This document shows, piece by piece, positions 3,495-61,848 of a stretch of 64,000 bases of DNA (its first letter is position 1; each line of letters begins with the position of its first letter). Position numbers and translations under genes: made by a program. Source of the stretch: Escherichia coli (GTDB lineage Bacteria > Pseudomonadota > Gammaproteobacteria > Enterobacterales > Enterobacteriaceae); assembly GCF_009931435.1 (NCBI RefSeq), contig NZ_CP043414.1. One strand, 5' to 3'. The notes beneath the pieces were generated by a model that saw only the letters and a program-made list of their open reading frames with translations, did not search any database and was not told the origin of the DNA.

Positions 3495-3524
3495 ACCACC
3501 GGATAAACGGTAAAAGACGGCGCT

Positions 3525-4292
3525 ATGTGGATTGGCATAATTAGCCTGTTTCCTGAAATGTTCCGCGCAATTACCGATTACGGGGTAACTGGCCGGGCAG
3601 TTAAAAATGGCCTGCTGAGCATCCAGAGCTGGAGTCCTCGTGACTTCACGCATGACCGGCACCGTACTGTGGACGATCGTCCTTACGGCGGCGGACCGGG
3701 GATGTTAATGATGGTGCAACCTTTACGGGACGCCATTCATGCAGCAAAAGCCGCGGCGGGTGAAGGCGCAAAGGTGATTTATCTGTCACCGCAGGGGCGC
3801 AAGCTTGATCAAGCAGGCGTCAGCGAACTGGCAACGAATCAAAAATTGATTCTGGTGTGCGGTCGCTACGAAGGTATAGATGAGCGCGTGATCCAAACCG
3901 AAATTGACGAAGAATGGTCAATCGGCGATTACGTTCTCAGTGGTGGTGAGTTACCAGCAATGACGCTGATTGACTCCGTTTCCCGGTTTATTCCGGGAGT
4001 ACTGGGACATGAAGCTTCGGCAACGGAAGATTCCTTTGCTGAAGGATTGCTGGATTGCCCGCACTATACACGGCCTGAGGTGTTAGAAGGGATGGAAGTT
4101 CCGTCAGTGTTACTGTCGGGCAACCATGCTGAGATACGTCGCTGGCGTTTGAAACAGTCGCTGGGCCGTACCTGGCTTAGAAGACCTGAACTTCTGGAAA
4201 ACCTGGCTCTGACTGAAGAGCAAGCAAGGTTGCTGGCGGAGTTCAAAACGGAACACGCACAACAGCAACATAAACATGATGGGATGGCGTAA
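3525..4292 (+). CDS. trmD: tRNA (guanine37-N1)-methyltransferase TrmD
   Basis: 255 aa; SPOUT-family sequence; operon context. Confidence 0.95.
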
Positions 4293-11120: not shown

Positions 11121-11142
11121 AGTGTTGCCTTTTTGTTATCAA

Positions 11143-11170
11143 TAAAAAAGGCCCCCCGGTTTGGGAGGCC
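11143..11170 (-). terminator. pheA attenuator terminator
   Basis: Minus-strand hairpin ggcctcccaaaccggggggcc followed by U-run, between pheL and pheA. Confidence 0.8.
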
Positions 11171-11218
11171 TTATTGTTCGTCTTCGCATTCTGTTTCACA
11201 CGACGAAACGCCTCCCAT

Positions 11219-11266
11219 TCAGGGGAAGGTAAAAAAGAATGCGAAGAAAAACGGCGTGTGTTTCAT
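11219..11266 (-). CDS. pheL: pheA leader peptide PheL ([15 protein letters not shown])
   Basis: 15-codon minus-strand ORF with seven Phe codons, directly upstream of the attenuator. Confidence 0.9.
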   Translation of the reverse strand: [15 protein letters not shown]

Positions 11267-11320
11267 GTTTGTTTCCTTAGGTGACTTCAGTACAGTACCC
11301 GTACTGTTTTCTCGCTGTCA

Positions 11321-11433: not shown

Positions 11434-12456
11434 TTATGTGGATGAAATGTGGATGCCTCCTTTTAACGGATTAAGTGAAATTGCATCCTGGAGGAAATCA
11501 GGAGCGAGGTGCGCATAGGTCATAGTTTGCTGGATCGTGGCGTGCCCCATAATTCGCTGGAGCGTAAGTATATTTCCTCCATTAATCATAAAGTGAGCAG
11601 CAAAGGTATGGCGTAGAACATGTACAGCCTGTCCTTTTGGTAGGTCTGGCTTAACACTGCGAAGCACCTTGCGATATTCCTCATAATTGACGTCAAACAA
11701 AAGGCCGGATTTCTTTGTTTTGATCTCACTAACAACTTCATCAGAGACAGGAATAATTCGAACTTTTCCGTTTTTAGTTTTGTTAAACGTCACGCGATTA
11801 TTGATGATGTGTTCCGCGCGCAGATTTTTCGCTTCTCCCCATCTCGCCCCAGTACTGAGACAAAGTAGCGTAATCCGCCGGGCATCACCGCTTACTGCAT
11901 CCAGTAATTTGGCGATTTCTTCCATGGTGAGATACGTCATTTCGGGTGATTTTCGTTTCAAAGAGGGGAGGGCGCGGAGCGGATTTTCTCCGTGAAATTC
12001 CCCGGCATTTGCCAGGAGTGTAAACATTCCTCCGAGATCCGACTCATCACGCCGAACAGTAGACTCTTTTACTCCCAAAGATAAACGGGAGCTTCGATAA
12101 GCGGCCATGAAACGAGCATTAATCTGGCTAACCCTTGGATCATTCATTTCTTTGATGATTTTTTTCAACCTGGTTAGAACGCCGTTAGCATATGGCTTAT
12201 TGCGTCCACCCAATTCCCACCATAACGGAAGCAGATCTGAGAGATGACGTTGCTCTGTTGGCTTTTCAAGCCATTCCTTATCGTGCATGTGGCTGAGAAC
12301 ATAACGCTCAAAGGCCACTGCATCTGCCTTTTTCTTAAAAATCCGCTGAATCCGACGTCCACTTCGGCCACGCGGTCTAACATCCACTTTATACCGTCCA
12401 CCATCGAGCGCTTTAATTGCCATTGGCAAGCCCTCCGGTGAAACGAGGAAAGACAT
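11434..12456 (-). CDS. int: Tyrosine integrase, P2 Int-like (start possibly at 12423, MAIKALDGGRY)
   Basis: Similar to P2 Int as I recall it (LSTGARWGEA, HxLRHTFA, YAH motifs). Confidence 0.9.
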   Translation of the reverse strand: MSFLVSPEGLPMAIKALDGGRYKVDVRPRGRSGRRIQRIFKKKADAVAFERYVLSHMHDKEWLEKPTEQRHLSDLLPLWWELGGRNKPYANGVLTRLKKIIKEMNDPRVSQINARFMAAYRSSRLSLGVKESTVRRDESDLGGMFTLLANAGEFHGENPLRALPSLKRKSPEMTYLTMEEIAKLLDAVSGDARRITLLCLSTGARWGEAKNLRAEHIINNRVTFNKTKNGKVRIIPVSDEVVSEIKTKKSGLLFDVNYEEYRKVLRSVKPDLPKGQAVHVLRHTFAAHFMINGGNILTLQRIMGHATIQQTMTYAHLAPDFLQDAISLNPLKGGIHISST

Positions 12457-12489: not shown

Positions 12490-12807
12490 TTAGCCAATTT
12501 TCCTTTCGGATGGGGGTAAGTCCGTTGGCTCTTGCCCATAGTGTGCGAGAGCCGGAGCTATCTGCCCGGATTCAGGCGCAATTTTCCCAGTCATAAACCA
12601 CAACGCATATTTCTCAAATCTGGGGTTGTTTAGTATTTGCTCAATTACTTCAGCATTAGGGATAGTTTTACCGCTTTCATATCTCCACAGAGCATCACGG
12701 TTTAAACCAAGCATTTTTGCTGTATCCGGGAGGCTAGTAAGTCTCTCGCTTTCACGCATGATTTTTATGCGCTCTCCAATAGTCATACGCATGTTGCAAT
12801 TCTCCAA
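12490..12807 (-). CDS. Immunity repressor, P2 C-like
   Basis: C-terminal WFMTGKIAPESGQIAPALAHYGQ block matches P2 C as recalled; divergent from the cox-like gene. Confidence 0.85.
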   Translation of the reverse strand: MENCNMRMTIGERIKIMRESERLTSLPDTAKMLGLNRDALWRYESGKTIPNAEVIEQILNNPRFEKYALWFMTGKIAPESGQIAPALAHYGQEPTDLPPSERKIG

Positions 12808-15537: not shown

Positions 15538-15750
15538 ATGAACAAAAAGACCTGGTTTCGCGCATACATGTGGGCGCTGGTATGCGTCCTCGTTTCTCTC
15601 ATTCTGTATGTGGGGCTACTTCCCAGAATGATTTCATCAGACAGCTCCTTCCTGGTATTGCTGGGCATTTTTGTCGCCTTGCTGTACCCGGCGGGCGTTG
15701 TTCGCTTTTTCAGTAACTACATCAAAGCAATTATGGAAACCAAACAATGA
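15538..15750 (+). CDS. Small two-TM membrane protein (70 aa)
   Basis: Two hydrophobic helices; ATGA overlap with downstream SPFH gene. Confidence 0.5.
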   Translation: MNKKTWFRAYMWALVCVLVSLILYVGLLPRMISSDSSFLVLLGIFVALLYPAGVVRFFSNYIKAIMETKQ

Positions 15751-16571
15751 AAAAACTATTACCACTCATCCCTCTCCTGATGACCACACTTCTGGTTGGC
15801 TGTGACCGCGTGGAGCCGGGCAATGTAGGCATCAAAGTCAACAAACTGGGCGACGATAAAGGCGTCGGTGAAGTAGTTGGCGTTGGCCGCTACTGGACAG
15901 GCTGGAATACAGAGGTTTACATCTTCCCGACTTTCAAACAAATGAAGACTTACGATGAGCCGTTCAACTTCCAGATGAGTGACGGCACAACCATCGGCTA
16001 TCACATCGGCGTGGCCTACAAAGTTGATCCATCCAAAGTTACCACTGTGTTTCAGACCTACCGCAAAGGCGTGGATGACATTACCGACACTGACCTGCGC
16101 CAGAAGATCGCCGATGCACTCAACCGACTGGCCAGCAAAATGACCACCGATAAGTTTATCGACGGTGGCAAGTCTGAACTGCTGGATTCAGCACTTAAAG
16201 ACATTCAGTCAGAAATGACACCTATCGGCATTCAGGTCATGAGCCTCTCTTATGTCGGTAAACCGGAATATCCGCCAACCGTTATCGACAGCATTAACGC
16301 CAAAGTCACGGCAAACCAGAAAACCCTGCAACGCGAACAGGAAGTCAAGCAACGCGAAGCAGAAGCCAACATGTTGCGCGCAGAAGCTGCCGGACAGGCT
16401 GATGCCATTCGCACAAAAGCCCAGGCTGAAGCCGACGCCATTCGTTTACGCGGTGAAGCTCTGCGCCAGAATCCCGGCGTTATGGAGCTGGAAGCAATCA
16501 ACAAATGGAACGGCACGCTGCCGCAATACATGACCAGCAACACCGCTGTTCCGTTTGTTCCGGTGAAGTAA
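15747..16571 (+). CDS. SPFH/band-7 (prohibitin/HflKC-like) domain lipoprotein
   Basis: Signal peptide plus lipobox LLVGC; SPFH-like core; Ala/Glu/Arg-rich coiled-coil tail. Confidence 0.6.
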   Translation: MKKLLPLIPLLMTTLLVGCDRVEPGNVGIKVNKLGDDKGVGEVVGVGRYWTGWNTEVYIFPTFKQMKTYDEPFNFQMSDGTTIGYHIGVAYKVDPSKVTTVFQTYRKGVDDITDTDLRQKIADALNRLASKMTTDKFIDGGKSELLDSALKDIQSEMTPIGIQVMSLSYVGKPEYPPTVIDSINAKVTANQKTLQREQEVKQREAEANMLRAEAAGQADAIRTKAQAEADAIRLRGEALRQNPGVMELEAINKWNGTLPQYMTSNTAVPFVPVK

Positions 16572-16940
16572 TTAAACCCGGCCAGTGAAAATCGCTGGCC
16601 GGAGCAGTATCAGGATTTTTTTTAGTATGCCGTTCTCACAAAAAAACCGCTTGCCATGCCGCAATCAGTCAGGTTACATTTCCGCTGCACCTCATAAAAC
16701 GGGTGCCGGGTTTCGCAGCCTGCTGACAACCAAAGCGCACAACCGCGCCAGCGGTTTTTTTGTGCGTACTGTATTGCCACGTCTTTTTCGCACACGAATT
16801 ATGGCGGGGCGTACGGGGCCGACTTCGGTCGGGCCGGGTTCTTTGGTTGCCGGTACTGCGAACCCCGTACGTCTCGCCACCCACAGTTTCGCAGCTCTGG
16901 ATGGTGAGTTTTCAAAACTTACAACCAAAGAGGCTACACC

Positions 16941-17171
16941 ATGGCAAACCGCAAACAGCACCGCGCTATCGCGGAGCGTCGTCACATCCAGACTGAAATC
17001 AACCGCAGACTTTCCCGCGCATTCCGCGTCGCTAAAATCATGCACATCAATATGCTGCATGAGCGTAGCTGCGAACTTTCAAACCTCTACTCATCCGCTG
17101 TTTTCAGTTATCTGGCGGATGATCTGCGCGAGCTTCAGCAGCTCATCCAGCAGCAAAACAAACTCCATTAA
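16941..17171 (+). CDS. Hypothetical small basic protein (76 aa)
   Basis: AAAGAGG RBS. Confidence 0.45.
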   Translation: MANRKQHRAIAERRHIQTEINRRLSRAFRVAKIMHINMLHERSCELSNLYSSAVFSYLADDLRELQQLIQQQNKLH

Positions 17172-17243
17172 TTCCTGTTCCGGGCCTTTCCTGCACCTTG
17201 CGGCGGGAGGCCTTCGCACATCTGTAACAAGAGGATTGCCGCA

Positions 17244-17609
17244 ATGATTCTCGCCAACGACTTTCTTGAATACCTGCTCAACACAGAGCGTGATCTTGCC
17301 GCTCGCGTGCGTGATCGTTATGACATGTACCTGAAATCCCTGCCTGTACCGCAGCTCGCTGACGGAAAGATTGTTATTGATGGTCGCTACATGATTGACA
17401 GCCACGAGGGAAATTACAGGCTTTCCCGCATTGAAGGTGGCACCCCGTCCGTTATTGGCATTTACCAGCGCCCATCCTCTGCAATCGTCGATGTGATTGC
17501 CGACAGCATCCGCATCACACATCGCCATGCCGACACAGAAGACACCGTGCTGGAAATTCAGCGGCTGGCTACAGTCTGCCGCGACACCCTGAATGGCATG
17601 ACGAAGTAA
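17244..17609 (+). CDS. Hypothetical protein (121 aa) upstream of replication gene
   Basis: AGAGGA RBS; position analogous to P2 gene B. Confidence 0.45.
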   Translation: MILANDFLEYLLNTERDLAARVRDRYDMYLKSLPVPQLADGKIVIDGRYMIDSHEGNYRLSRIEGGTPSVIGIYQRPSSAIVDVIADSIRITHRHADTEDTVLEIQRLATVCRDTLNGMTK

Positions 17610-17615
17610 ATCACT

Positions 17616-20438
17616 ATGACGGCAGAGTACATCAGGGACTGGCAACAACCGCGCCACGCAGTGGGGCGTGAAGGAACGGGGATCCCCGCTCCTGAATCCG
17701 CGCTTTCCTCCTGGCTGGATGCCTACCGGGTAGAGAACGAGCGCCGCCAGGAAATGGCTGATGCGGCGTTCTCCGCCACGCCGCTGGGCAACCTGATTAA
17801 TAAAAGCCTGGACGCACAGGAAAAACAGGACAAAACCATCACACTGGCAGGAGACGCCAGAAAACAGGCACGCGGCGCAGTGGATGAAGCCATGACCTCG
17901 CTGCGCCTGCTGCCGTCCTATCTGCGCGATCCGCTTATTCGCCACCTCTCCTTCCTGCGCAAAAAACAGGAAGCCGATCGCCGGAAAGGCAAAAAGAGCT
18001 GGCAGGCGGAACGCTATGCACGCGGAACCCTGCGCAAAATATTCGAACGTCTGGACCGCACCGATCACCGCTGGCTGACACCGGGTTATCGCTCCCTTGC
18101 CGGACGCGAACGCCTGGACGATTTGCTTTACCTGCCGCAGCTCAACAAACACCAGATACAGACGCTGGCCACCATGACGGCGGCGATGTTCAGCAGCACC
18201 TTCGAAAAACTCTGCGATGGCTTTGGCGCGACTGATGGCGAACTGACCATGGATGTAACGCTGAAGGCGTATCAGATGCTGGCCCGCATGGCGTTACACC
18301 TGCACGCCATGCCTCCACATTATGACGCACTGACAACAGACAAAGACCGGAGGAACGAACCGGACACAGAGCTGCTGCCGGGCGCAATCCTTCGCCTGAC
18401 CTGTGCGGAATGGTGGAAACGCAAACTGTGGCTGTTACGTTGCGAGTGGCGGGAAGAACAACTCCGCGCCGCCTGTCTGGTTTCCAGAAAAACATCGCCC
18501 TATCTGAGCCAGGACGCGTTAAGCGAGTTTCGCGCACAGCGCGAGAAAACACGCGATTTCCTGAAAAGTTTCATGCTGGAAAACGAAGACGGGTTCACGA
18601 TTGATCTCGAGACAGTGTATTACGCGGGAGTAAGTAACCCGGTTCACCGTAAGGCAGAAATGATGGCCACCATGAAGGGACTGGAACTTCTGGCCGAAGC
18701 CCGTGGCGACAGAGCGGTGTTTCTGACTGTCACCTGCCCGTCAAAATACCACGCAACAACGGAGAACGGTCATCCGAACCCCAAATGGAACGGGGCCACC
18801 ATGCGCGACTCCAGCGATTACCTGGTTAACACGTTTTTTGCGGCGGTCCGCAAAAAACTGAACCGCGACGGCCTGCGCTGGTATGGCATCCGCACGGTGG
18901 AGCCTCACCATGACGGCACCGTGCACTGGCATATGATGGTCTTTGCTCATCCGGAAGAAATCGACAGCATCGTGGCCATCACCCGCGATATTGCCATTCA
19001 GGAAGACCGCCACGAGCTGGGCAATGATATTACTCCGCGCTTTAAAGTGGAGTATGTCGACGGCTCAAAAGGCACACCAACCAGCTATATCGCGACCTAC
19101 ATCGGGAAAAACCTGGACAGCCGCGCCGTGGATGGCATCGACCCGAAAACGGGCAAACCACGCGTTGACCACGAAACCGGAAAGTCAATGGCCGAGAGCG
19201 TGGAACGCGCCATCGGCTGGGCGCGCCTTCACCGTGTCCGCCAGTTCCAGTTCTTTGGTATCCCCTCCCGTCAGGTGTGGCGTGAACTGCGTCGCCTTGC
19301 CAGCCAGATGGCACGCAACCCGGAAGGCCCGCAACAGCTGAAGGATGACGCAATGGATGCGGTACTCGCTGCCGCTGATGCCGGATGTTTTGCCACCTAC
19401 ATAGAGAAACAGGGCGGCGTTCTTGTTCCACGCAAAGACTACCTGATTCGCACCGCCTACGACCTCGCAGATGAGCTGAACGATTACGGCGAACAGAGCG
19501 TACAGATTTACGGGATCTGGTCGCCACTCATCGGGGAATCCTCCCGTGTGTGCACGCATCCGGATAACTGGAAGCTGGTAAGACGTAAACCGGAAACGGA
19601 AGACAGCGCCCGCGAAAATGGTTTTGACCTTCAGGGCGGCCCTGCCGCCCCTTGGACTCGTGGCAATAACTGTCCCCGTGTACAGGAAACGGACAACAAC
19701 GGGACAGAACAGCCGGAAGAACGGCCAGCACCGTGGCCGCAGCTTCCTGACAGCGTTGACGTGAATGAATGGATGCGCTCACTGAAACGGCACGAACGCC
19801 GGGCGCTGATGCGTTCGCTGCGTGACAAACAGGCAAAAAACAGCAGTGATGAAATGCAGAACTGGACACAGAGCCGCAAACAGCCACGGCCTTTGCCTGA
19901 TAACCACGAGTTACTCGCTAAAGAATGGCGGGAGTCTGCTGAATCTCTCGGCCTGCATATTGGTGAACAGCAGATGCAGCACCTGTTACGGGGCGGCAGT
20001 CTGTACGTTGACGGCAGCATCATTGCACCGCAGGGATTTGAAATTGTACGCAAACCGGATACCCGCCCGGACAGCCGAATCACGCAGCTCTGGCAGCGCC
20101 TGAGCCGTAATCACGGCGTAAGCAGCACGGGGATCCGCCATAACCCGGTCGCCAGCTATCTGGAACAGCTGGGGGCATCAGACCCCGAAGCCGCCGCACG
20201 CCTGGCATCCACACTTCAGCAGGACCAGAACACCATGAAAACCCCCGTTACCGTGCTTTCTGACATGCTGCGCGCCATCCGTGACGCAGAGCACGCACAG
20301 AGAATCAGTGAAACAACTGAACGCGCCCGCCGCAAAGCAGACCTGCTGCGGGGTGGCCTGACCAGTGGAAACAAAAAACAGACAAAAACAGGATTCACAA
20401 ATCCCGTAAATGAGCAAAAAACGCGCCGTGATATATGA
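17616..20438 (+). CDS. Rolling-circle replication initiator (HUH endonuclease, P2 gpA / phiX174 gpA family), 940 aa
   Basis: HUH motif in VHWHMMVFAHP and catalytic Tyr motif YIATYIGKNLD; position after the early operon. Confidence 0.8.
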   Translation: MTAEYIRDWQQPRHAVGREGTGIPAPESALSSWLDAYRVENERRQEMADAAFSATPLGNLINKSLDAQEKQDKTITLAGDARKQARGAVDEAMTSLRLLPSYLRDPLIRHLSFLRKKQEADRRKGKKSWQAERYARGTLRKIFERLDRTDHRWLTPGYRSLAGRERLDDLLYLPQLNKHQIQTLATMTAAMFSSTFEKLCDGFGATDGELTMDVTLKAYQMLARMALHLHAMPPHYDALTTDKDRRNEPDTELLPGAILRLTCAEWWKRKLWLLRCEWREEQLRAACLVSRKTSPYLSQDALSEFRAQREKTRDFLKSFMLENEDGFTIDLETVYYAGVSNPVHRKAEMMATMKGLELLAEARGDRAVFLTVTCPSKYHATTENGHPNPKWNGATMRDSSDYLVNTFFAAVRKKLNRDGLRWYGIRTVEPHHDGTVHWHMMVFAHPEEIDSIVAITRDIAIQEDRHELGNDITPRFKVEYVDGSKGTPTSYIATYIGKNLDSRAVDGIDPKTGKPRVDHETGKSMAESVERAIGWARLHRVRQFQFFGIPSRQVWRELRRLASQMARNPEGPQQLKDDAMDAVLAAADAGCFATYIEKQGGVLVPRKDYLIRTAYDLADELNDYGEQSVQIYGIWSPLIGESSRVCTHPDNWKLVRRKPETEDSARENGFDLQGGPAAPWTRGNNCPRVQETDNNGTEQPEERPAPWPQLPDSVDVNEWMRSLKRHERRALMRSLRDKQAKNSSDEMQNWTQSRKQPRPLPDNHELLAKEWRESAESLGLHIGEQQMQHLLRGGSLYVDGSIIAPQGFEIVRKPDTRPDSRITQLWQRLSRNHGVSSTGIRHNPVASYLEQLGASDPEAAARLASTLQQDQNTMKTPVTVLSDMLRAIRDAEHAQRISETTERARRKADLLRGGLTSGNKKQTKTGFTNPVNEQKTRRDI

Positions 20439-53511: not shown

Positions 53512-53640
53512 CCTAAAGAATCAAGACGATCCGGTACGCGTGATTTTCTTTTCACATTAATCTGGTCAATAACCTTGAATAATTGAGGGATGACCTCATT
53601 TAATCTCCAGTAGCAACTTTGATCCGTTATGGGAGGAGTT

Positions 53641-56214
53641 ATGCGTCTGGATCGTCTTACTAATAAATTCCAGCTTGCTCTTGCCGATGCCCAATCACTT
53701 GCACTCGGGCACGACAACCAATTCATCGAACCTCTTCATTTAATGAGCGCCCTGCTGAATCAGGAAGGGGGTTCGGTTAGTCCTTTATTAACATCCGCCG
53801 GCATCAATGCTGGTCAGTTGCGCACAGATATCAATCAGGCATTAAATCGTTTACCGCAGGTTGAAGGCACTGGTGGCGATGTCCAGCCCTCACAGGATCT
53901 GGTGCGCGTTCTTAATCTTTGCGACAAGCTGGCGCAAAAACGTGGTGATAACTTTATCTCGTCAGAACTGTTCGTTCTGGCGGCACTTGAGTCTCGCGGC
54001 ACGCTGGCCGACATCCTGAAAGCAGCAGGGGCGACCACCGCCAACATTACTCAAGCGATTGAACAAATGCGTGGAGGTGAAAGCGTGAACGATCAAGGAG
54101 CTGAAGACCAACGTCAGGCTTTGAAAAAATACACTATCGACCTCACCGAACGAGCCGAACAAGGCAAACTCGATCCGGTGATTGGCCGTGATGAAGAAAT
54201 TCGCCGTACCATTCAGGTACTGCAACGTCGTACTAAAAATAACCCGGTGCTGATTGGTGAACCAGGTGTTGGTAAAACAGCCATCGTTGAAGGTCTGGCT
54301 CAGCGTATTATCAATGGCGAAGTACCGGAAGGGCTGAAAGGCCGCCGCGTACTGGCGCTGGATATGGGCGCGCTGGTGGCTGGGGCGAAATATCGCGGTG
54401 AGTTTGAAGAACGTTTAAAAGGCGTACTTAACGATCTTGCTAAACAGGAAGGGAACGTCATCCTGTTTATCGACGAATTACATACCATGGTCGGCGCGGG
54501 TAAAGCCGATGGCGCAATGGACGCCGGAAACATGCTGAAACCGGCGCTGGCGCGTGGTGAATTGCACTGCGTAGGTGCCACGACGCTGGACGAATATCGC
54601 CAGTACATCGAAAAAGATGCTGCGCTGGAACGTCGCTTCCAGAAAGTGTTTGTTGCCGAGCCAACCGTGGAAGACACCATTGCTATTCTGCGTGGCCTGA
54701 AAGAACGTTATGAACTGCACCACCATGTGCAAATTACTGACCCGGCAATTGTTGCAGCGGCGACGTTGTCTCATCGCTACATTGCTGACCGTCAGCTGCC
54801 GGATAAAGCCATCGACCTGATCGATGAAGCAGCATCCAGCATTCGTATGCAGATTGACTCAAAACCGGAAGAACTCGACCGACTCGATCGTCGTATCATC
54901 CAGCTCAAACTGGAACAACAGGCGTTAATGAAAGAGTCTGATGAAGCCAGTAAAAAACGCCTGGATATGCTCAACGAAGAACTGAGCGACAAAGAACGTC
55001 AGTATTCCGAGTTAGAAGAAGAGTGGAAAGCAGAGAAAGCCTCGCTCTCTGGTACGCAGACCATTAAAGCGGAACTGGAACAGGCGAAAATCGCTATTGA
55101 ACAGGCTCGCCGTGTGGGTGATCTGGCGCGGATGTCTGAACTGCAATACGGCAAAATTCCAGAACTGGAAAAGCAACTGGAAGCCGCAACGCAGCTCGAA
55201 GGCAAAACTATGCGTCTCTTGCGTAATAAAGTGACCGACGCCGAAATTGCTGAAGTGCTGGCGCGTTGGACGGGGATTCCGGTTTCTCGCATGATGGAAA
55301 GCGAGCGCGAAAAACTGCTGCGTATGGAGCAAGAGCTGCACCATCGCGTTATTGGTCAGAACGAAGCGGTTGATGCGGTATCTAACGCTATTCGTCGTAG
55401 CCGTGCGGGGCTTGCTGACCCGAATCGCCCGATTGGTTCATTCCTGTTCCTCGGCCCAACGGGTGTGGGGAAAACTGAGCTTTGTAAGGCGCTGGCGAAC
55501 TTTATGTTTGATAGCGACGAGGCGATGGTCCGTATCGATATGTCCGAGTTTATGGAGAAACACTCGGTGTCTCGTCTGGTTGGTGCGCCTCCGGGATATG
55601 TCGGTTATGAAGAAGGTGGCTACCTGACCGAAGCAGTGCGTCGTCGTCCGTATTCCGTCATCCTGCTGGATGAAGTGGAAAAAGCGCATCCGGATGTCTT
55701 CAACATTCTGTTGCAGGTACTGGATGATGGGCGTCTGACTGACGGGCAGGGGAGAACGGTCGACTTCCGTAATACGGTTGTCATTATGACCTCTAACCTC
55801 GGTTCCGATTTGATTCAGGAACGCTTCGGTGAACTGGATTATGCGCACATGAAAGAGCTGGTACTCGGTGTGGTAAGCCATAACTTCCGTCCGGAATTCA
55901 TTAACCGTATCGATGAAGTGGTGGTCTTCCATCCGCTGGGTGAACAGCACATTGCGTCGATTGCGCAGATTCAGTTGAAACGTCTGTACAAACGTCTGGA
56001 AGAACGTGGTTATGAAATCCACATTTCTGACGAGGCGCTGAAACTGCTGAGCGAGAACGGTTACGATCCGGTCTATGGTGCACGTCCTCTGAAACGTGCA
56101 ATCCAGCAGCAGATCGAAAACCCGCTGGCACAGCAAATACTGTCTGGTGAATTGGTTCCGGGTAAAGTTATTCGCCTGGAAGTTAATGAAGACAGGATTG
56201 TCGCCGTCCAGTAA
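53641..56214 (+). CDS. clpB: Chaperone disaggregase ClpB (start at [10 protein letters not shown])
   Basis: 857 aa; two AAA+ modules (GEPGVGKT and GPTGVGKT Walker A); ORF start at 53629 is a short upstream extension. Confidence 0.97.
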
Positions 56215-56655: not shown

Positions 56656-58197
<1,542 letters not shown>

Positions 58198-58368
58198 CCT
58201 TAAAGAAGCGTACTTTGCAGTGCTCACACAGATTGTCTGATGAAAAGTGAATAGCAAGGCGTTTACGCGTTGGGAGTGAGGCTGAAGAGAATAAGGCCGT
58301 TCGCTTTCTATTAATGAAAGCTCACCCTACACGAAAATATCACGCAGCGCGTGATAAGCAATTTTCGT

Positions 58369-58444
58369 GTCCCCTTCGTCTAGAGGCCCAGGACACCGCC
58401 CTTTCACGGCGGTAACAGGGGTTCGAATCCCCTAGGGGACGCCA
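58369..58444 (+). tRNA. gltW: tRNA-Glu (UUC) in the 16S-23S spacer
   Basis: GTCCCCTTCGTCTAGAGG...GGGGACGCCA, 76 nt. Confidence 0.95.
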
Positions 58445-58637
58445 CTTGCTGGTTTGTGAGTGAAAGTCACCTGCCTTAATATCTCAAAACTCATCTTCGG
58501 GTGACGTTTGAGATATTTGCTCTTTAAAAATCTGGATCAAGCTGAAAATTGAAACACTGAACAACGAAAGTTGTTCGTGAGTCTCTCAAATTTTCGCAAC
58601 ACGATGATGAATCGCAAGAAACATCTTCGGGTTGTGA

Positions 58638-61541
<2,904 letters not shown>

Positions 61542-61728
61542 TACAACGCCGAAGGTGTTTTGGCGGATTGAGAGAATTTCAGCTTGGATCCAGAGTCCGA
61601 AGGATTTTGCGCTGAGACAAGGCGGCAAATGAAGCGAAGGAAGGAGCATACTGAAGTATGTGACTGATTTTCGCGAATGCAGCCAACGCAGTATCAGCAC
61701 AAAAGACACAGGACAGAGCACAGGAATT

Positions 61729-61848
61729 TGCCTGGCGGCCTTAGCGCGGTGGTCCCACCTGACCCCATGCCGAACTCAGAAGTGAAACGCCGTAGCGCCG
61801 ATGGTAGTGTGGGGTCTCCCCATGCGAGAGTAGGGAACTGCCAGGCAT
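61729..61848 (+). rRNA. rrfG: 5S ribosomal RNA
   Basis: TGCCTGGCGGCC...GAACTGCCAGGCAT, 120 nt. Confidence 0.97.

What the first reader, a model, noticed from the sequence alone, without database searches (positions are those of the whole stretch)
16572..16940. GC-rich structured non-coding segment between the SPFH gene and the replication module
About 370 bp lacks any convincing ORF but contains a terminator-like hairpin with T-run (about 16736..16762) and a long imperfect stem-loop (cgtacgggg ... ccccgtacg around 16808..16870 enclosing a smaller ggccgac/gtcgggcc hairpin). It could encode a small RNA, a regulatory leader for the replication operon or part of an origin.
Basis: seen in the sequence. 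Interest (0 to 1): 0.35.

Follow-up and report, generated by a model that had tools for sequence, protein, structure and literature searches.

The report
Phage antisense-RNA immunity cassette (IsrK + C4)
The "structured non-coding segment" holds two known phage regulatory RNAs, an IsrK/seqA-type small RNA and a C4/CI-type antisense RNA, arranged as in satellite phage P4's immunity region but sitting in a P2-like prophage, where they most likely hold an anti-repressor-like gene and the replication genes in check.

Summary

It is not a new RNA. Rfam places 16687-16761 in isrK (65.9 bits, cut-off 50) and 16797-16884 in C4 antisense RNA (87.1 bits, cut-off 45). Phage P4's immunity region gives the same pair, where the RNAs are called seqA and CI. 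In P4 they are followed by epsilon and the replication gene. Here they are followed by a 76-aa epsilon-family ORF, a 121-aa ORF and a P2-type A replication endonuclease.

Two unpaired segments of the C4 RNA (b' 16839-16849, a' 16856-16862) are complementary to sites upstream in IsrK (a1, b1) and downstream (a2, b2). Site b2 covers the ribosome-binding site of the epsilon-like gene.

In 39 distinct relatives almost all variation falls in these six sites and is three-way compensatory, with 5 a-alleles and 13 b-alleles. In 25 cassettes 97.5% of stem positions stay paired.

Most likely mechanism: trans-acting RNA immunity that blocks translation of the first downstream gene, with polar effects on replication.

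Verdict: a new member of a known kind. It occurs in about a quarter of complete E. coli genomes but is unannotated or mislabelled there. An origin of replication is not supported.

The parts
16578..16602 (+). Hairpin directly after the SPFH stop codon (CCGGCCAGUGA / UCGCUGGCCGG). A U8 run follows only 13 nt later. Possible weak terminator of the upstream cargo gene. Not part of the conserved cassette.
   Evidence: pair I8. The first ~65 nt of the segment are not conserved in many relatives, whose homology starts at 16637.
16634..16649 (+). CUCACAAAAAAACCGC, just upstream of the -35 hexamer. It is complementary to the 3' half of the IsrK terminator plus its U-run (16751-16766). Candidate antiterminator for transcripts that start upstream, or simply a promoter UP element.
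   Evidence: I1: 28 nt, 82% complementary; duplex of -28 to -38 kcal/mol in the five loci of the epsilon-like/replication-gene lineage that were tested; not seen in the lambdoid cassettes or P4. Function is inferred.
16651..16680 (+). Sigma-70-type promoter of IsrK: -35 TTGCCA (16651-16656), 18-nt spacer, -10 TACATT (16675-16680). The predicted start is at 16687.
   Evidence: Both hexamers are invariant in 39 distinct relatives. Position 1 of the Rfam isrK model aligns to 16687. No transcript data.
16687..16761 (+). IsrK / P4-seqA-type small RNA: hairpin 1 (16687-16706), hairpin 2 (16707-16722), single-stranded linker, and an intrinsic terminator (16741-16761).
   Evidence: Rfam RF01394, 65.9 bits against a gathering score of 50. 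The helices keep pairing with compensatory changes.
16712..16718 (+). a1 site (UUCGCAG) in the loop of IsrK hairpin 2. Complementary to a' of the C4 RNA.
   Evidence: I5, D8; alleles.
16727..16735 (+). b1 site (CAACCAAAG) in the IsrK linker. Complementary to b' of the C4 RNA.
   Evidence: (I13, D5).
16797..16884 (+). C4 / P4-CI-type antisense RNA: a 17-bp closing stem (16802-16818 / 16863-16879) enclosing hairpins 16819-16832 and 16833-16854.
   Evidence: Rfam RF01695, 87.1 bits against a gathering score of 45. Fold z = -3.9. The closing stem is 100% paired in 25 cassettes, with 8 of 17 pairs changed on both sides.
16839..16849 (+). b' (UUCUUUGGUUG), the loop of the second inner hairpin. This is the antisense segment for b1 and b2.
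   Evidence: (I9, I13).
16856..16862 (+). a' (CUGCGAA), the single-stranded junction. This is the antisense segment for a1 and a2.
   Evidence: (I5).
16888..16894 (+). a2 site (UUCGCAG) in the mRNA leader. It is a direct repeat of a1 (the 10-mer GTTTCGCAGC occurs at 16710 and 16886).
   Evidence: (D8).
16902..16908 (+). Leader segment UGGUGAG, complementary to the 3' strand of the C4 closing stem (16873-16879). This possible alternative helix would exclude the C4 fold in the unprocessed transcript.
   Evidence: 81.8% of cells paired, 4 pairs changed on both sides; slid controls 32-50%. P4 has the matching pair GCUAUCGCC / GGCGAUAGC. Support is modest and the role is unknown.
16922..16933 (+). 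b2 site (CAACCAAAGAG, 16922-16932) overlapping the Shine-Dalgarno sequence AAGAGG (16928-16933) of the epsilon-like ORF, whose ATG is at 16941.
   Evidence: (I9).
16941..17171 (+). 76-aa ORF of the P4 epsilon ('derepression') family. It is the first gene under the antisense target.
   Evidence: Pfam PF25738, 29.5 bits against a cut-off of 27. 29% identity to P4 epsilon, pairwise BLASTP E = 1e-8. The PHROG matches are reciprocal: each protein hits the other's family. Sources name it 'derepression protein'.
16801..17247 (+). Open frame starting at the conserved AUG of AAUUAUGG at the 5' edge of C4. It runs out of frame across the epsilon-like gene and stops in an ATGA overlap with the start of the next gene. 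Upstream the frame is open back to 16576. It is the counterpart of Gifsy-1 orf45 and of the P4 frame annotated as 'cI gene product'.
   Evidence: zero stops in this frame in three lineages only 57-65% identical in nucleotides, against 2-7 stops in the third frame. Pfam Phage_ASH, 26-32 bits. Translation here is inferred, not shown.
17244..17609 (+). 121-aa ORF of unknown function (phrog_3237). Absent from the Salmonella and lambdoid-type versions of the module.
   Evidence: No similarity to P4 orf151.
17616..20438 (+). 940-aa P2 gpA-type replication endonuclease, the last gene of the regulated unit.
   Evidence: Pfam Phage_GPA, 434.9 bits.
12490..12807 (-). P2 C-type immunity repressor of this prophage. 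Presumed target of the epsilon-like protein.
   Evidence: 51.5% identity to P2 C by tblastn. That epsilon binds it is inferred from P4 biology, not tested.

Best explanation
The segment is a P4/P1-type antisense-RNA immunity cassette carried by a P88-like (Xuanwuvirus, P2-like) prophage.

Proposed mechanism:
1. A promoter at 16651-16680 starts transcription at about 16687.
2. Most transcripts stop at the intrinsic terminator (16741-16761) and give a ~75-nt IsrK/seqA-type RNA that carries sites a1 and b1.
3. Read-through transcripts contain the C4/CI-type RNA (about 16802-16884). In P1 and P4 this RNA is cut out of the precursor.
4. The loop b' and junction a' of the C4 RNA pair with a2 and b2 in the leader. 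Because b2 overlaps the Shine-Dalgarno sequence, translation of the 76-aa epsilon-family gene is blocked. Through loss of translation (polarity), expression of the 121-aa ORF and the replication endonuclease falls too.
5. The same a'/b' segments pair with a1/b1. IsrK RNA can therefore compete for C4, so it acts as an anti-antisense activator, as shown for Gifsy-1.
6. The a/b sequences set the specificity. Relatives carry many mutually incompatible alleles, which amount to different RNA immunities.

What is shown here: family membership, structure conservation, three-way complementarity and its co-evolution, and the gene order shared with P4.

What is inferred: promoter activity, processing, repression in trans, polarity on replication, and anti-repressor activity of the epsilon-like protein against the P2 C-type repressor.
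For: - Rfam: isrK 65.9 bits against 50, and C4 87.1 bits against 45.
- P4's immunity region gives the same two families in the same order, followed by epsilon and then the replication gene alpha. The ORF here is in the epsilon family.
- Published work equates IsrK with seqA and C4 with CI RNA, and describes an 'IsrK-C4 immunity system of P4' (PMC3632133).
- c4 RNA blocks ant translation by pairing around the ribosome-binding site (PMC12197685; PMC8198154).
- Complementarity in the window: b' with b2 over 11 nt and with b1 over 9 nt; a' with a1 and a2 over 7 nt. The only three copies of the 9-mer CAACCAAAG in 64 kb are these three sites, in the right orientations.
- Co-evolution: in 39 distinct relatives the variation is concentrated in the six sites and is compensatory, with 5 a' and 13 b' alleles in 15 combinations.
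- Duplex energies: cognate about -10 (a) and -12 to -16 (b) kcal/mol, against -2.5 and -5 to -7 for non-cognate pairs. The same holds across lambdoid and Klebsiella cassettes.
- Structure: 97.5% of cells paired, 20 of 44 pairs changed on both sides, 0 of 500 shuffles as good, slid controls 36-48%.
- The promoter hexamers are invariant.
- The spacing from C4 to the next ATG (57 nt) is identical in divergent modules.
Against: - There are no expression data of any kind. Promoter use, terminator read-through, processing and action in trans are all untested here.
- In Gifsy-1, the only experimentally dissected lambdoid cassette, the measured effect is activation by IsrK of a translationally silent read-through mRNA through orf45 coupling. 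Repression by a processed C4-like RNA was not demonstrated there (PMC4825925).
- The epsilon-family match is weak (29.5 bits against 27).
- The same epsilon-like/replication-gene module occurs in lambdoid-type contigs with a Q antiterminator gene downstream. Whether those phages carry a P2 C-type repressor was not checked, so an anti-repressor role is uncertain.
- A conserved open frame crosses the RNAs, so part of the conservation may serve translation.
Confidence: 0.8

Rival explanations
1. Gifsy-1-type positive control is the main function. The read-through transcript is folded into a translationally silent form. [quoted passage not shown] Translation of the frame that starts at AUG 16801 (the orf45 counterpart) then delivers ribosomes to the downstream gene through the ATGA overlap at 17244-17247. 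Under this reading the C4-shaped element is mainly a cis-acting mRNA structure rather than a processed trans repressor.
For: - Experimental precedent in PMC4825925: IsrK in trans raises anrP translation more than 100-fold, orf45 is translated, and its stop overlaps the anrP start as AUGA.
- Here the equivalent frame from AUG 16801 ends in ATGA on the next gene. It stays free of stops in lineages 57-65% identical, while the third frame has 2-7 stops.
Against: - P1 c4 is described in the papers read as an antisense RNA that represses ant. [quoted passage not shown]
- A stable processed RNA downstream of IsrK (STnc1160) exists in Salmonella.
- Site b2 sits on the Shine-Dalgarno sequence of the epsilon-like gene, which the activation model does not need.
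- The two models use the same pairings and are not mutually exclusive.
Confidence: 0.25
2. The region is protein-coding: an 'Ash family' or eta-like protein. On this reading the conservation reflects that protein and the RNA folds are incidental.
For: - A 220-codon open frame at 16585..17247.
- Pfam Phage_ASH matches at 26-32 bits against a cut-off of 26.
- RefSeq annotates a pseudo 'ash family protein' over the stretch equivalent to 16627-16890.
- The frame is conserved as open.
Against: - Substitutions come as base-pair-preserving doubles, including G-U intermediates, and as three-way changes at sites 100-200 nt apart. Protein selection does not predict this.
- The amino-acid sequence changes radically at the a and b sites.
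- The Gifsy-1 authors report that the orf45 nucleotide sequence is conserved while its amino-acid sequence varies.
- The frame contains a promoter and an intrinsic terminator.
- What appears to be selected is that the frame stays open, not what it encodes.
Confidence: 0.05
3. The region is a purely cis-acting transcription attenuator or terminator leader for the replication operon, with no trans-acting RNA.
For: An intrinsic terminator at 16741-16761, and a possible antiterminator pairing between 16627-16654 and 16747-16774.
Against: This does not explain the duplicated a/b sites on both sides of the C4 RNA or their three-way co-evolution. It also does not explain membership of two RNA families with known trans action.
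Confidence: 0.05
4. The region is part of a replication origin.
For: Proximity to the replication endonuclease gene, and the presence of inverted repeats.
Against: - Many stem positions are G-U pairs, which work only in RNA from the + strand.
- No iteron families or AT-rich block.
- In P2 the nick site at ori is annotated inside gene A.
Confidence: 0.01

Closest known systems
Satellite phage P4 immunity region (seqA - CI RNA/seqB - seqC, then kil/eta, epsilon, orf151, alpha)
   Same: - The same two Rfam families in the same order and strand: isrK 60.8 bits and C4 74.9 bits in P4.
- a/b-type sites upstream and downstream of the antisense RNA.
- The first start codon lies 57 nt after the RNA.
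- An epsilon-family gene and then the replication gene lie downstream.
- A long open frame crosses the RNA region and matches Pfam Phage_ASH in both.
   Different: - The host element is a full P2-like phage, not a satellite.
- The replication gene is a P2 gpA-type endonuclease, not the P4 alpha primase.
- The epsilon-like gene sits directly on the b2/Shine-Dalgarno target. In P4, epsilon starts about 245 nt after CI. From my own recollection of the P4 literature, not from a tool result, the gene in between is kil.
- The crossing frame is out of frame with the epsilon-like gene and ends on the next gene.
- No similarity to P4 orf151.
- The spacer between IsrK and C4 is 35 nt here and 107 nt in P4.
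Phage P1/P7 ImmI operon (c4 - icd - ant1/2)
   Same: A C4-family antisense RNA with two antisense segments that pair around the ribosome-binding site of the next gene and control an anti-repressor. Sequence differences in these segments give heteroimmunity.
   Different: The downstream genes are unrelated: icd and ant in P1, an epsilon-like gene and gpA here. I did not fetch the P1 sequence, so the comparison rests on Rfam family membership and on the papers.
Gifsy-1 isrK - orf45 (STnc1160) - anrP locus, and the same cassette in lambdoid and Stx phages
   Same: - An IsrK sRNA with its own promoter and a leaky terminator.
- A C4-shaped element carrying an AUG at its 5' edge.
- A frame whose stop overlaps the next start as AUGA.
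- All 12 phage loci tested carry isrK plus C4 upstream of an antirepressor-type or other early gene.
- Some a' alleles are identical to the window's.
   Different: - The downstream gene there is a Rha/Ant-type antirepressor.
- In mEp460-type phages the crossing frame is in frame with the antirepressor (my frame arithmetic).
- There the cassette sits between cII or roi and the O/P replication genes of lambdoid phages.
- The complement that looks like an upstream antiterminator is absent there.

Membership tests
C4 antisense RNA (Rfam RF01695; P1 c4 / P4 CI) | Covariance-model score at or above the curated gathering score | tested here: met
   87.1 bits against 45, full-length match 1-87 of 87.
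C4 antisense RNA (Rfam RF01695; P1 c4 / P4 CI) | Long closing stem enclosing two hairpins, maintained by compensatory change in relatives | tested here: met
   the closing stem is 100% paired, with 8 of 17 pairs changed on both sides. The first inner hairpin has 4 of 5 pairs changed on both sides and the second has 1 of 5.
C4 antisense RNA (Rfam RF01695; P1 c4 / P4 CI) | Two unpaired segments (a', b') complementary to paired sites upstream (a1, b1) and downstream (a2, b2), the downstream one at a ribosome-binding site | tested here: met
   Three-way co-variation in 39 relatives and in 10 more distant cassettes.
C4 antisense RNA (Rfam RF01695; P1 c4 / P4 CI) | Excised from a longer precursor (by RNase P in P1 and P4, stated from my own knowledge) and active in trans as a repressor | not testable with these tools
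   Needs Northern blots or RNA-seq, an RNase P mutant and reporter fusions.
IsrK / seqA sRNA (Rfam RF01394) | Covariance-model score at or above the curated gathering score | tested here: met
   65.9 bits against 50, model positions 1-77 of 77.
IsrK / seqA sRNA (Rfam RF01394) | Own promoter directly upstream and an intrinsic terminator at the 3' end | tested here: met
   TTGCCA-18-TACATT ends 7 nt before model position 1. The hexamers are invariant. Terminator stem plus U7, with 2 of 6 pairs changed on both sides. This is sequence evidence only.
IsrK / seqA sRNA (Rfam RF01394) | Hfq binding and trans-activation of the read-through mRNA | not testable with these tools
   Known only from experiments in Salmonella (PMC4825925).
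c4-a1b1 motif (Rfam RF03163) | Score at or above the gathering score | tested here: not met
   20.5 bits against 46.7 at 16674-16726. P4 itself reaches only 44.1 bits. The a1 and b1 sites are nevertheless present by direct complementarity.
P4-type immunity operon | Gene order seqA - CI - seqC - epsilon - replication gene on one strand | tested here: met
   The same order, with a gpA-type replicase, is seen in Salmonella and lambdoid-type contigs.
P4-type immunity operon | Immunity acts through Rho-dependent termination before the replication gene | not testable with these tools
   No Rho-site predictor or expression data are available. The P4 primary papers are not in the held library.
P4 epsilon / Derepression protein family (Pfam PF25738) | Profile score above the Pfam cut-off and similarity to P4 epsilon | tested here: met
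   29.5 bits against 27. 29% identity over 66 aa, pairwise E = 1e-8. Reciprocal PHROG matches. The margin is thin.
P4 epsilon / Derepression protein family (Pfam PF25738) | Binds and inactivates a P2 C-type repressor | not testable with these tools
   The prophage does have a P2 C-type repressor, 51.5% identical to P2 C. The interaction itself is untested.
Replication origin | Iterons, an AT-rich unwinding block or a nick site, with DNA-level rather than RNA-level conservation | tested here: not met
   No iteron families. GC 44-66% with no AT-rich block. Strand-specific G-U pairing. In P2 the origin is annotated inside gene A.

The most novel reading that the evidence does not exclude
In P88-like and other phages with a gpA-type replicon, the IsrK-C4 cassette is a combinatorial RNA 'immunity barcode', with a and b alleles that reassort independently. 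It gates both an epsilon-type anti-repressor and the rolling-circle initiator.

Two conserved add-ons would make transcripts from the upstream lytic promoter insensitive to this immunity:
- an out-of-frame bridging ORF that ends in ATGA on the next gene;
- an upstream complement of the IsrK terminator.

On this reading helper-type phages carry the same immunity/derepression module that satellite P4 uses. That would allow RNA-level cross-talk among helpers, satellites and lambdoid prophages in one cell.
Probability: 0.3. Interest if true: 0.55.

Novelty: new member of a known kind. Interest (0 to 1): 0.35.

Why it matters
It turns an anonymous gap into a defined regulatory module. A second, RNA-based immunity layer sits in a common family of P2-like E. 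coli prophages: 1399 of 5426 complete genomes have a match, and 1152 have near-full coverage.

None of the 25 RefSeq E. coli matches or the P88-like phage records I inspected annotates the RNAs; one Stx phage record (F039) does. The stretch is labelled hypothetical, as a pseudo 'ash family protein', or carries a spurious minus-strand CDS.

The natural allele series (5 a-alleles by 13 b-alleles, with cognate targets) is a ready-made set of orthogonal antisense/target pairs. It is also a marker for prophage immunity typing.

The shared module with P4 bears on how satellites and helpers exchange control circuits.

For phage biology in general it is an expected member of a known system, not a surprise.

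Tried and rejected
- tRNA or tmRNA: ARAGORN finds nothing in the region.
- Origin of replication: rejected.
- A second promoter-like site at 16774-16802, just before C4: its -35 hexamer is changed (TTGCCA to TCGCCA) in many relatives, and its predicted start would fall inside the C4 stem. I do not adopt it.
- The Rfam c4-a1b1 match is below threshold. The Ms_AS-5, snoRNA and IRES matches are chance-level.
- IsrK folding energy alone is not significant.
- tblastn of the 76-aa protein finds only P88-like phages, not P4. The link to epsilon needed profiles and a pairwise comparison.
- The 121-aa ORF has no similarity to P4 orf151 and no Pfam or NCBIfam family.
- No solved structure is related to the epsilon-like protein.
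- P2 itself has no isrK or C4 match in its early region, so the cassette is not a general P2-like feature.
- The P4 primary papers (for example PMC176756) are not held. P4 mechanistic details such as RNase P processing, Rho-dependent termination at timm, and kil/eta are therefore cited from my own knowledge and from secondary statements in PMC3632133 and PMC4825925.
- Several literature calls failed because a search term was too short.

Full report
**What is in the sequence**

The segment 16572-16940 is the gap between the SPFH-domain gene (15747..16571) and a 76-aa ORF (16941..17171). A 121-aa ORF (17244..17609) and a 940-aa Phage_GPA replication endonuclease (17616..20438) follow.

- An intrinsic-terminator hairpin: 16741-16746 / 16751-16756, with a T-run to 16761.
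- A 17-bp imperfect stem: 16802-16818 / 16863-16879.

The 88-nt element folds at -49.8 kcal/mol, z = -3.9 against shuffles. The whole gap has z = -6.05. The first hairpin cluster is not exceptional by energy alone (z = -0.36).

**Identification**

An Rfam scan gives two matches above the curated thresholds, both on the + strand:
- isrK (RF01394) at 16687-16761, 65.9 bits against 50.
- C4 antisense RNA (RF01695) at 16797-16884, 87.1 bits against 45.

They are the only such pair in the 64-kb window.

The window is a P88-like prophage (Xuanwuvirus, Peduoviridae). The region is 93% identical to phage P88, whose record annotates no RNA and places a hypothetical CDS on the opposite strand across both RNAs. 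The integrase, a P2 C-type repressor and a cox-like gene lie upstream.

**The closest relative in organisation is satellite phage P4**

Scanning P4's immunity region gives the same two families in the same order: isrK at 60.8 bits and C4 at 74.9 bits. Epsilon, orf151, orf106 and the replication gene alpha follow.

P4 epsilon defines Pfam 'Derepression' (170 bits). The window's 76-aa ORF matches that family just above its cut-off (29.5 against 27). It is 29% identical to epsilon (pairwise E = 1e-8), and the PHROG matches are reciprocal.

Published work already equates IsrK with P4 seqA and C4 with P4 CI RNA. It speaks of an 'IsrK-C4 immunity system' that also occurs in P1, P7, N15 and lambdoid prophages (PMC3632133). 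The Gifsy-1 study names seqA as a structural homologue of IsrK (PMC4825925).

P2 itself has no such element in its early region.

**Target sites**

The loop of the second inner hairpin is b' (16839-16849, UUCUUUGGUUG). It is complementary to:
- b1 (16727-16735), in the single-stranded linker of IsrK;
- b2 (16922-16932), which overlaps the Shine-Dalgarno sequence AAGAGG, 7 nt before the ATG at 16941.

The junction segment is a' (16856-16862, CUGCGAA). It is complementary to:
- a1 (16712-16718), in the loop of IsrK hairpin 2;
- a2 (16888-16894).

The 9-mer CAACCAAAG occurs three times in the 64 kb, and all three are these sites, in the required orientations. The 10-mer GTTTCGCAGC occurs only at a1 and a2. 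The order a-b on the targets and b'-a' on the RNA fits antiparallel pairing. This is the a1b1 / a'b' / a2b2 layout that the Rfam C4 and c4-a1b1 families are named for; the seqA / seqB / seqC naming for P4 is my recollection.

**Comparative test**

The 76-aa protein retrieved 80 IMG/VR loci. Their intergenic regions collapse to 39 distinct sequences at 87-99% identity.

Nearly all substitutions fall in a1, b1, b', a', a2 and b2, and they are three-way compensatory. There are 5 a' alleles and 13 b' alleles in 15 combinations, so the a and b alleles reassort.

| Pairing | Cognate duplex (kcal/mol) | Non-cognate duplex (kcal/mol) |
|---|---|---|
| a' with a1 or a2 | about -10 | about -2.5 |
| b' with b1 or b2 | -12 to -16 | -5 to -7 |

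The same cognate advantage holds in nine lambdoid or Klebsiella cassettes and one Citrobacter phage.

On an alignment of 25 cassettes, the 44 proposed base pairs are formed in 97.5% of cells. Twenty pairs change on both sides, no shuffle out of 500 does as well, and slid controls give 36-48%. The C4 closing stem is 100% paired.

It is therefore clearly not met. Many stem positions are G-U, which fixes the functional strand as + and the functional molecule as RNA.

**Mechanism proposed**

A promoter starts IsrK at about 16687: TTGCCA-18-TACATT at 16651-16680, with hexamers invariant in all 39 variants. The terminator yields the short RNA, and read-through carries C4 and the leader.

By analogy with P1 c4 and P4 CI, the C4 RNA pairs with a2/b2 and occludes the ribosome-binding site of the epsilon-like gene. 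Loss of translation should reduce expression of the downstream 121-aa ORF and gene A.

IsrK carries decoy sites for the same antisense segments. In Gifsy-1, IsrK supplied in trans activates translation of the read-through mRNA.

The papers read here describe repression by the C4-type RNA in P1 and P4, and activation by IsrK in Gifsy-1. Both use the same pairings, and which one dominates here cannot be decided from sequence.

The epsilon-like protein is inferred to counteract the prophage's P2 C-type repressor, which is 51.5% identical to P2 C. That rests on P4 biology recalled from my own knowledge and on a weak family match. It is weakened by finding the same module in lambdoid-type contigs that carry a Q antiterminator gene downstream; their repressors were not examined.

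**Distribution**

The unit IsrK - C4 - 57 nt - epsilon-like gene - gpA-type replicase recurs in two other backgrounds:
- Salmonella contigs with a gpA-type replicase, where the epsilon-like protein is about 60% identical;
- lambdoid-type contigs.

Both RNAs score above threshold in every case.

In complete E. coli genomes, 1399 of 5426 have a match, with up to four per genome. Of the records I inspected, only the Stx phage F039 record annotates the two RNAs.

**Side observations that bear on 'no ORF'**

A frame is open from just after the SPFH stop (16576) to 17247. It contains the conserved AUG of AAUUAUGG at the 5' edge of C4 (16801), crosses the epsilon-like gene out of frame, and stops in an ATGA overlap with the next gene's start.

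In three lineages only 57-65% identical across the epsilon region, this frame has no stop. The third frame has 2-7 stops.

The frame's translation matches Pfam Phage_ASH, as does the P4 frame annotated as 'cI gene product'. RefSeq calls it a pseudo 'ash family protein'.

It corresponds to Gifsy-1 orf45. That ORF is translated and coupled to anrP through AUGA, and its nucleotide sequence is conserved while its amino-acid sequence is not. I read this as selection for an open, translatable bridge rather than for a protein.

Two further candidate RNA switches:
- 16634-16649, upstream of the IsrK start, is complementary to the 3' half of the IsrK terminator.
- 16902-16908 is complementary to the 3' strand of the C4 stem.

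**Verdict**

The element belongs to known families and to a known type of circuit. What is new is its setting in a P2-like phage with a gpA-type replicase, the breadth of its allele series, and some add-on features that remain hypotheses.

Noticed in passing
window 16576-17247 (+), especially 16801-17247: A conserved open frame runs through the IsrK promoter, IsrK, C4 (using the AUG of AAUUAUGG at 16801) and, out of frame, the whole epsilon-like gene. It ends in an ATGA overlap with the next gene. It has no stops in three lineages that are 57-65% identical, while the third frame has 2-7. It looks like a long version of Gifsy-1 orf45 or of P4 eta, acting as a translational bridge.
   Followed up: partly
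window 16627-16890; L084 3991-4254; L003 8168-8584 (-): Pfam Phage_ASH (PF10554) matches translations of the IsrK-C4 RNA region, both here and in P4. RefSeq annotates a pseudo 'ash family protein' over the RNAs. The protein family may largely reflect conserved RNA sequence.
   Followed up: partly
window 16627-16654 versus 16747-16774: A 28-nt, 82%-complementary long-range pair. The A7-CCGC segment just upstream of the IsrK -35 hexamer matches the 3' half of the IsrK terminator plus its U-run. It is strong (-28 to -38 kcal/mol) in the five loci of the epsilon-like/gpA lineage that were tested, and absent from the lambdoid cassettes and P4. It could let upstream-initiated transcripts read through, or it may just be a promoter UP element.
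   Followed up: partly
window 16873-16879 versus 16902-16908: The leader contains UGGUGAG, a near-copy of the 5' strand of the C4 stem, so it can pair with the 3' strand instead. Across 25 cassettes 81.8% of cells are paired and 4 pairs change on both sides. P4 has its own matching pair. This may be an alternative fold of the unprocessed transcript.
   Followed up: partly
L002 2141-3292 (mEp460); L085 1146-2297; L090 1141-2289: In lambdoid phages the annotated antirepressor/Rha CDS extends about 600 nt upstream of its likely start and runs in frame through isrK and C4. So either the start is mis-called or a nested long form exists.
   Followed up: no
L098-L101 (gene at 3501-3731; in L101 at 2273-2503), L096-L097: The IsrK-C4-epsilon-like unit is directly followed by shorter Phage_GPA replicases (640 or 839 aa), in contigs that also carry DUF968 and a Q antiterminator gene, or in Salmonella contigs with a gpA-type replicase. 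The RNA cassette travels with the gpA replicon across phage types.
   Followed up: partly
L001 5033-5221 (-): The P88 GenBank record has a 'hypothetical protein' CDS on the minus strand lying across both RNAs. It is probably spurious.
   Followed up: no
window 16856-16862 and L092/L093: The window's a' allele (ACUGCGAACC) and its a1/a2 sites are identical to those of two Stx-converting lambdoid phages. Its b' differs by two bases from that of mEp460. Partial cross-recognition between unrelated co-resident prophages is conceivable.
   Followed up: no
window 12490-12807 (-): The prophage's C repressor is 51.5% identical to P2 C but only 40% identical to P88's C, although the RNA cassette is 93% identical to P88. 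The protein immunity and the RNA immunity are mosaic and assort independently.
   Followed up: partly
window 11142-11267 (-), 11434-12456 (-), 53522-53660, 56656-61846: A Phe leader lies just outside the integrase end of the prophage. A RyfD-type sRNA and a complete rRNA operon with tRNA-Glu lie at the far end of the window.
   Followed up: no
window 16572-16636: The first ~65 nt of the finding (the SPFH-proximal hairpin 16578-16602 and a U8 run) are not conserved in many relatives. In some of these the upstream gene was seen to differ (for example a DNA-binding protein in Shae_phiSM, methylases in L096), so this stretch may belong to the variable upstream gene rather than to the cassette.
   Followed up: partly
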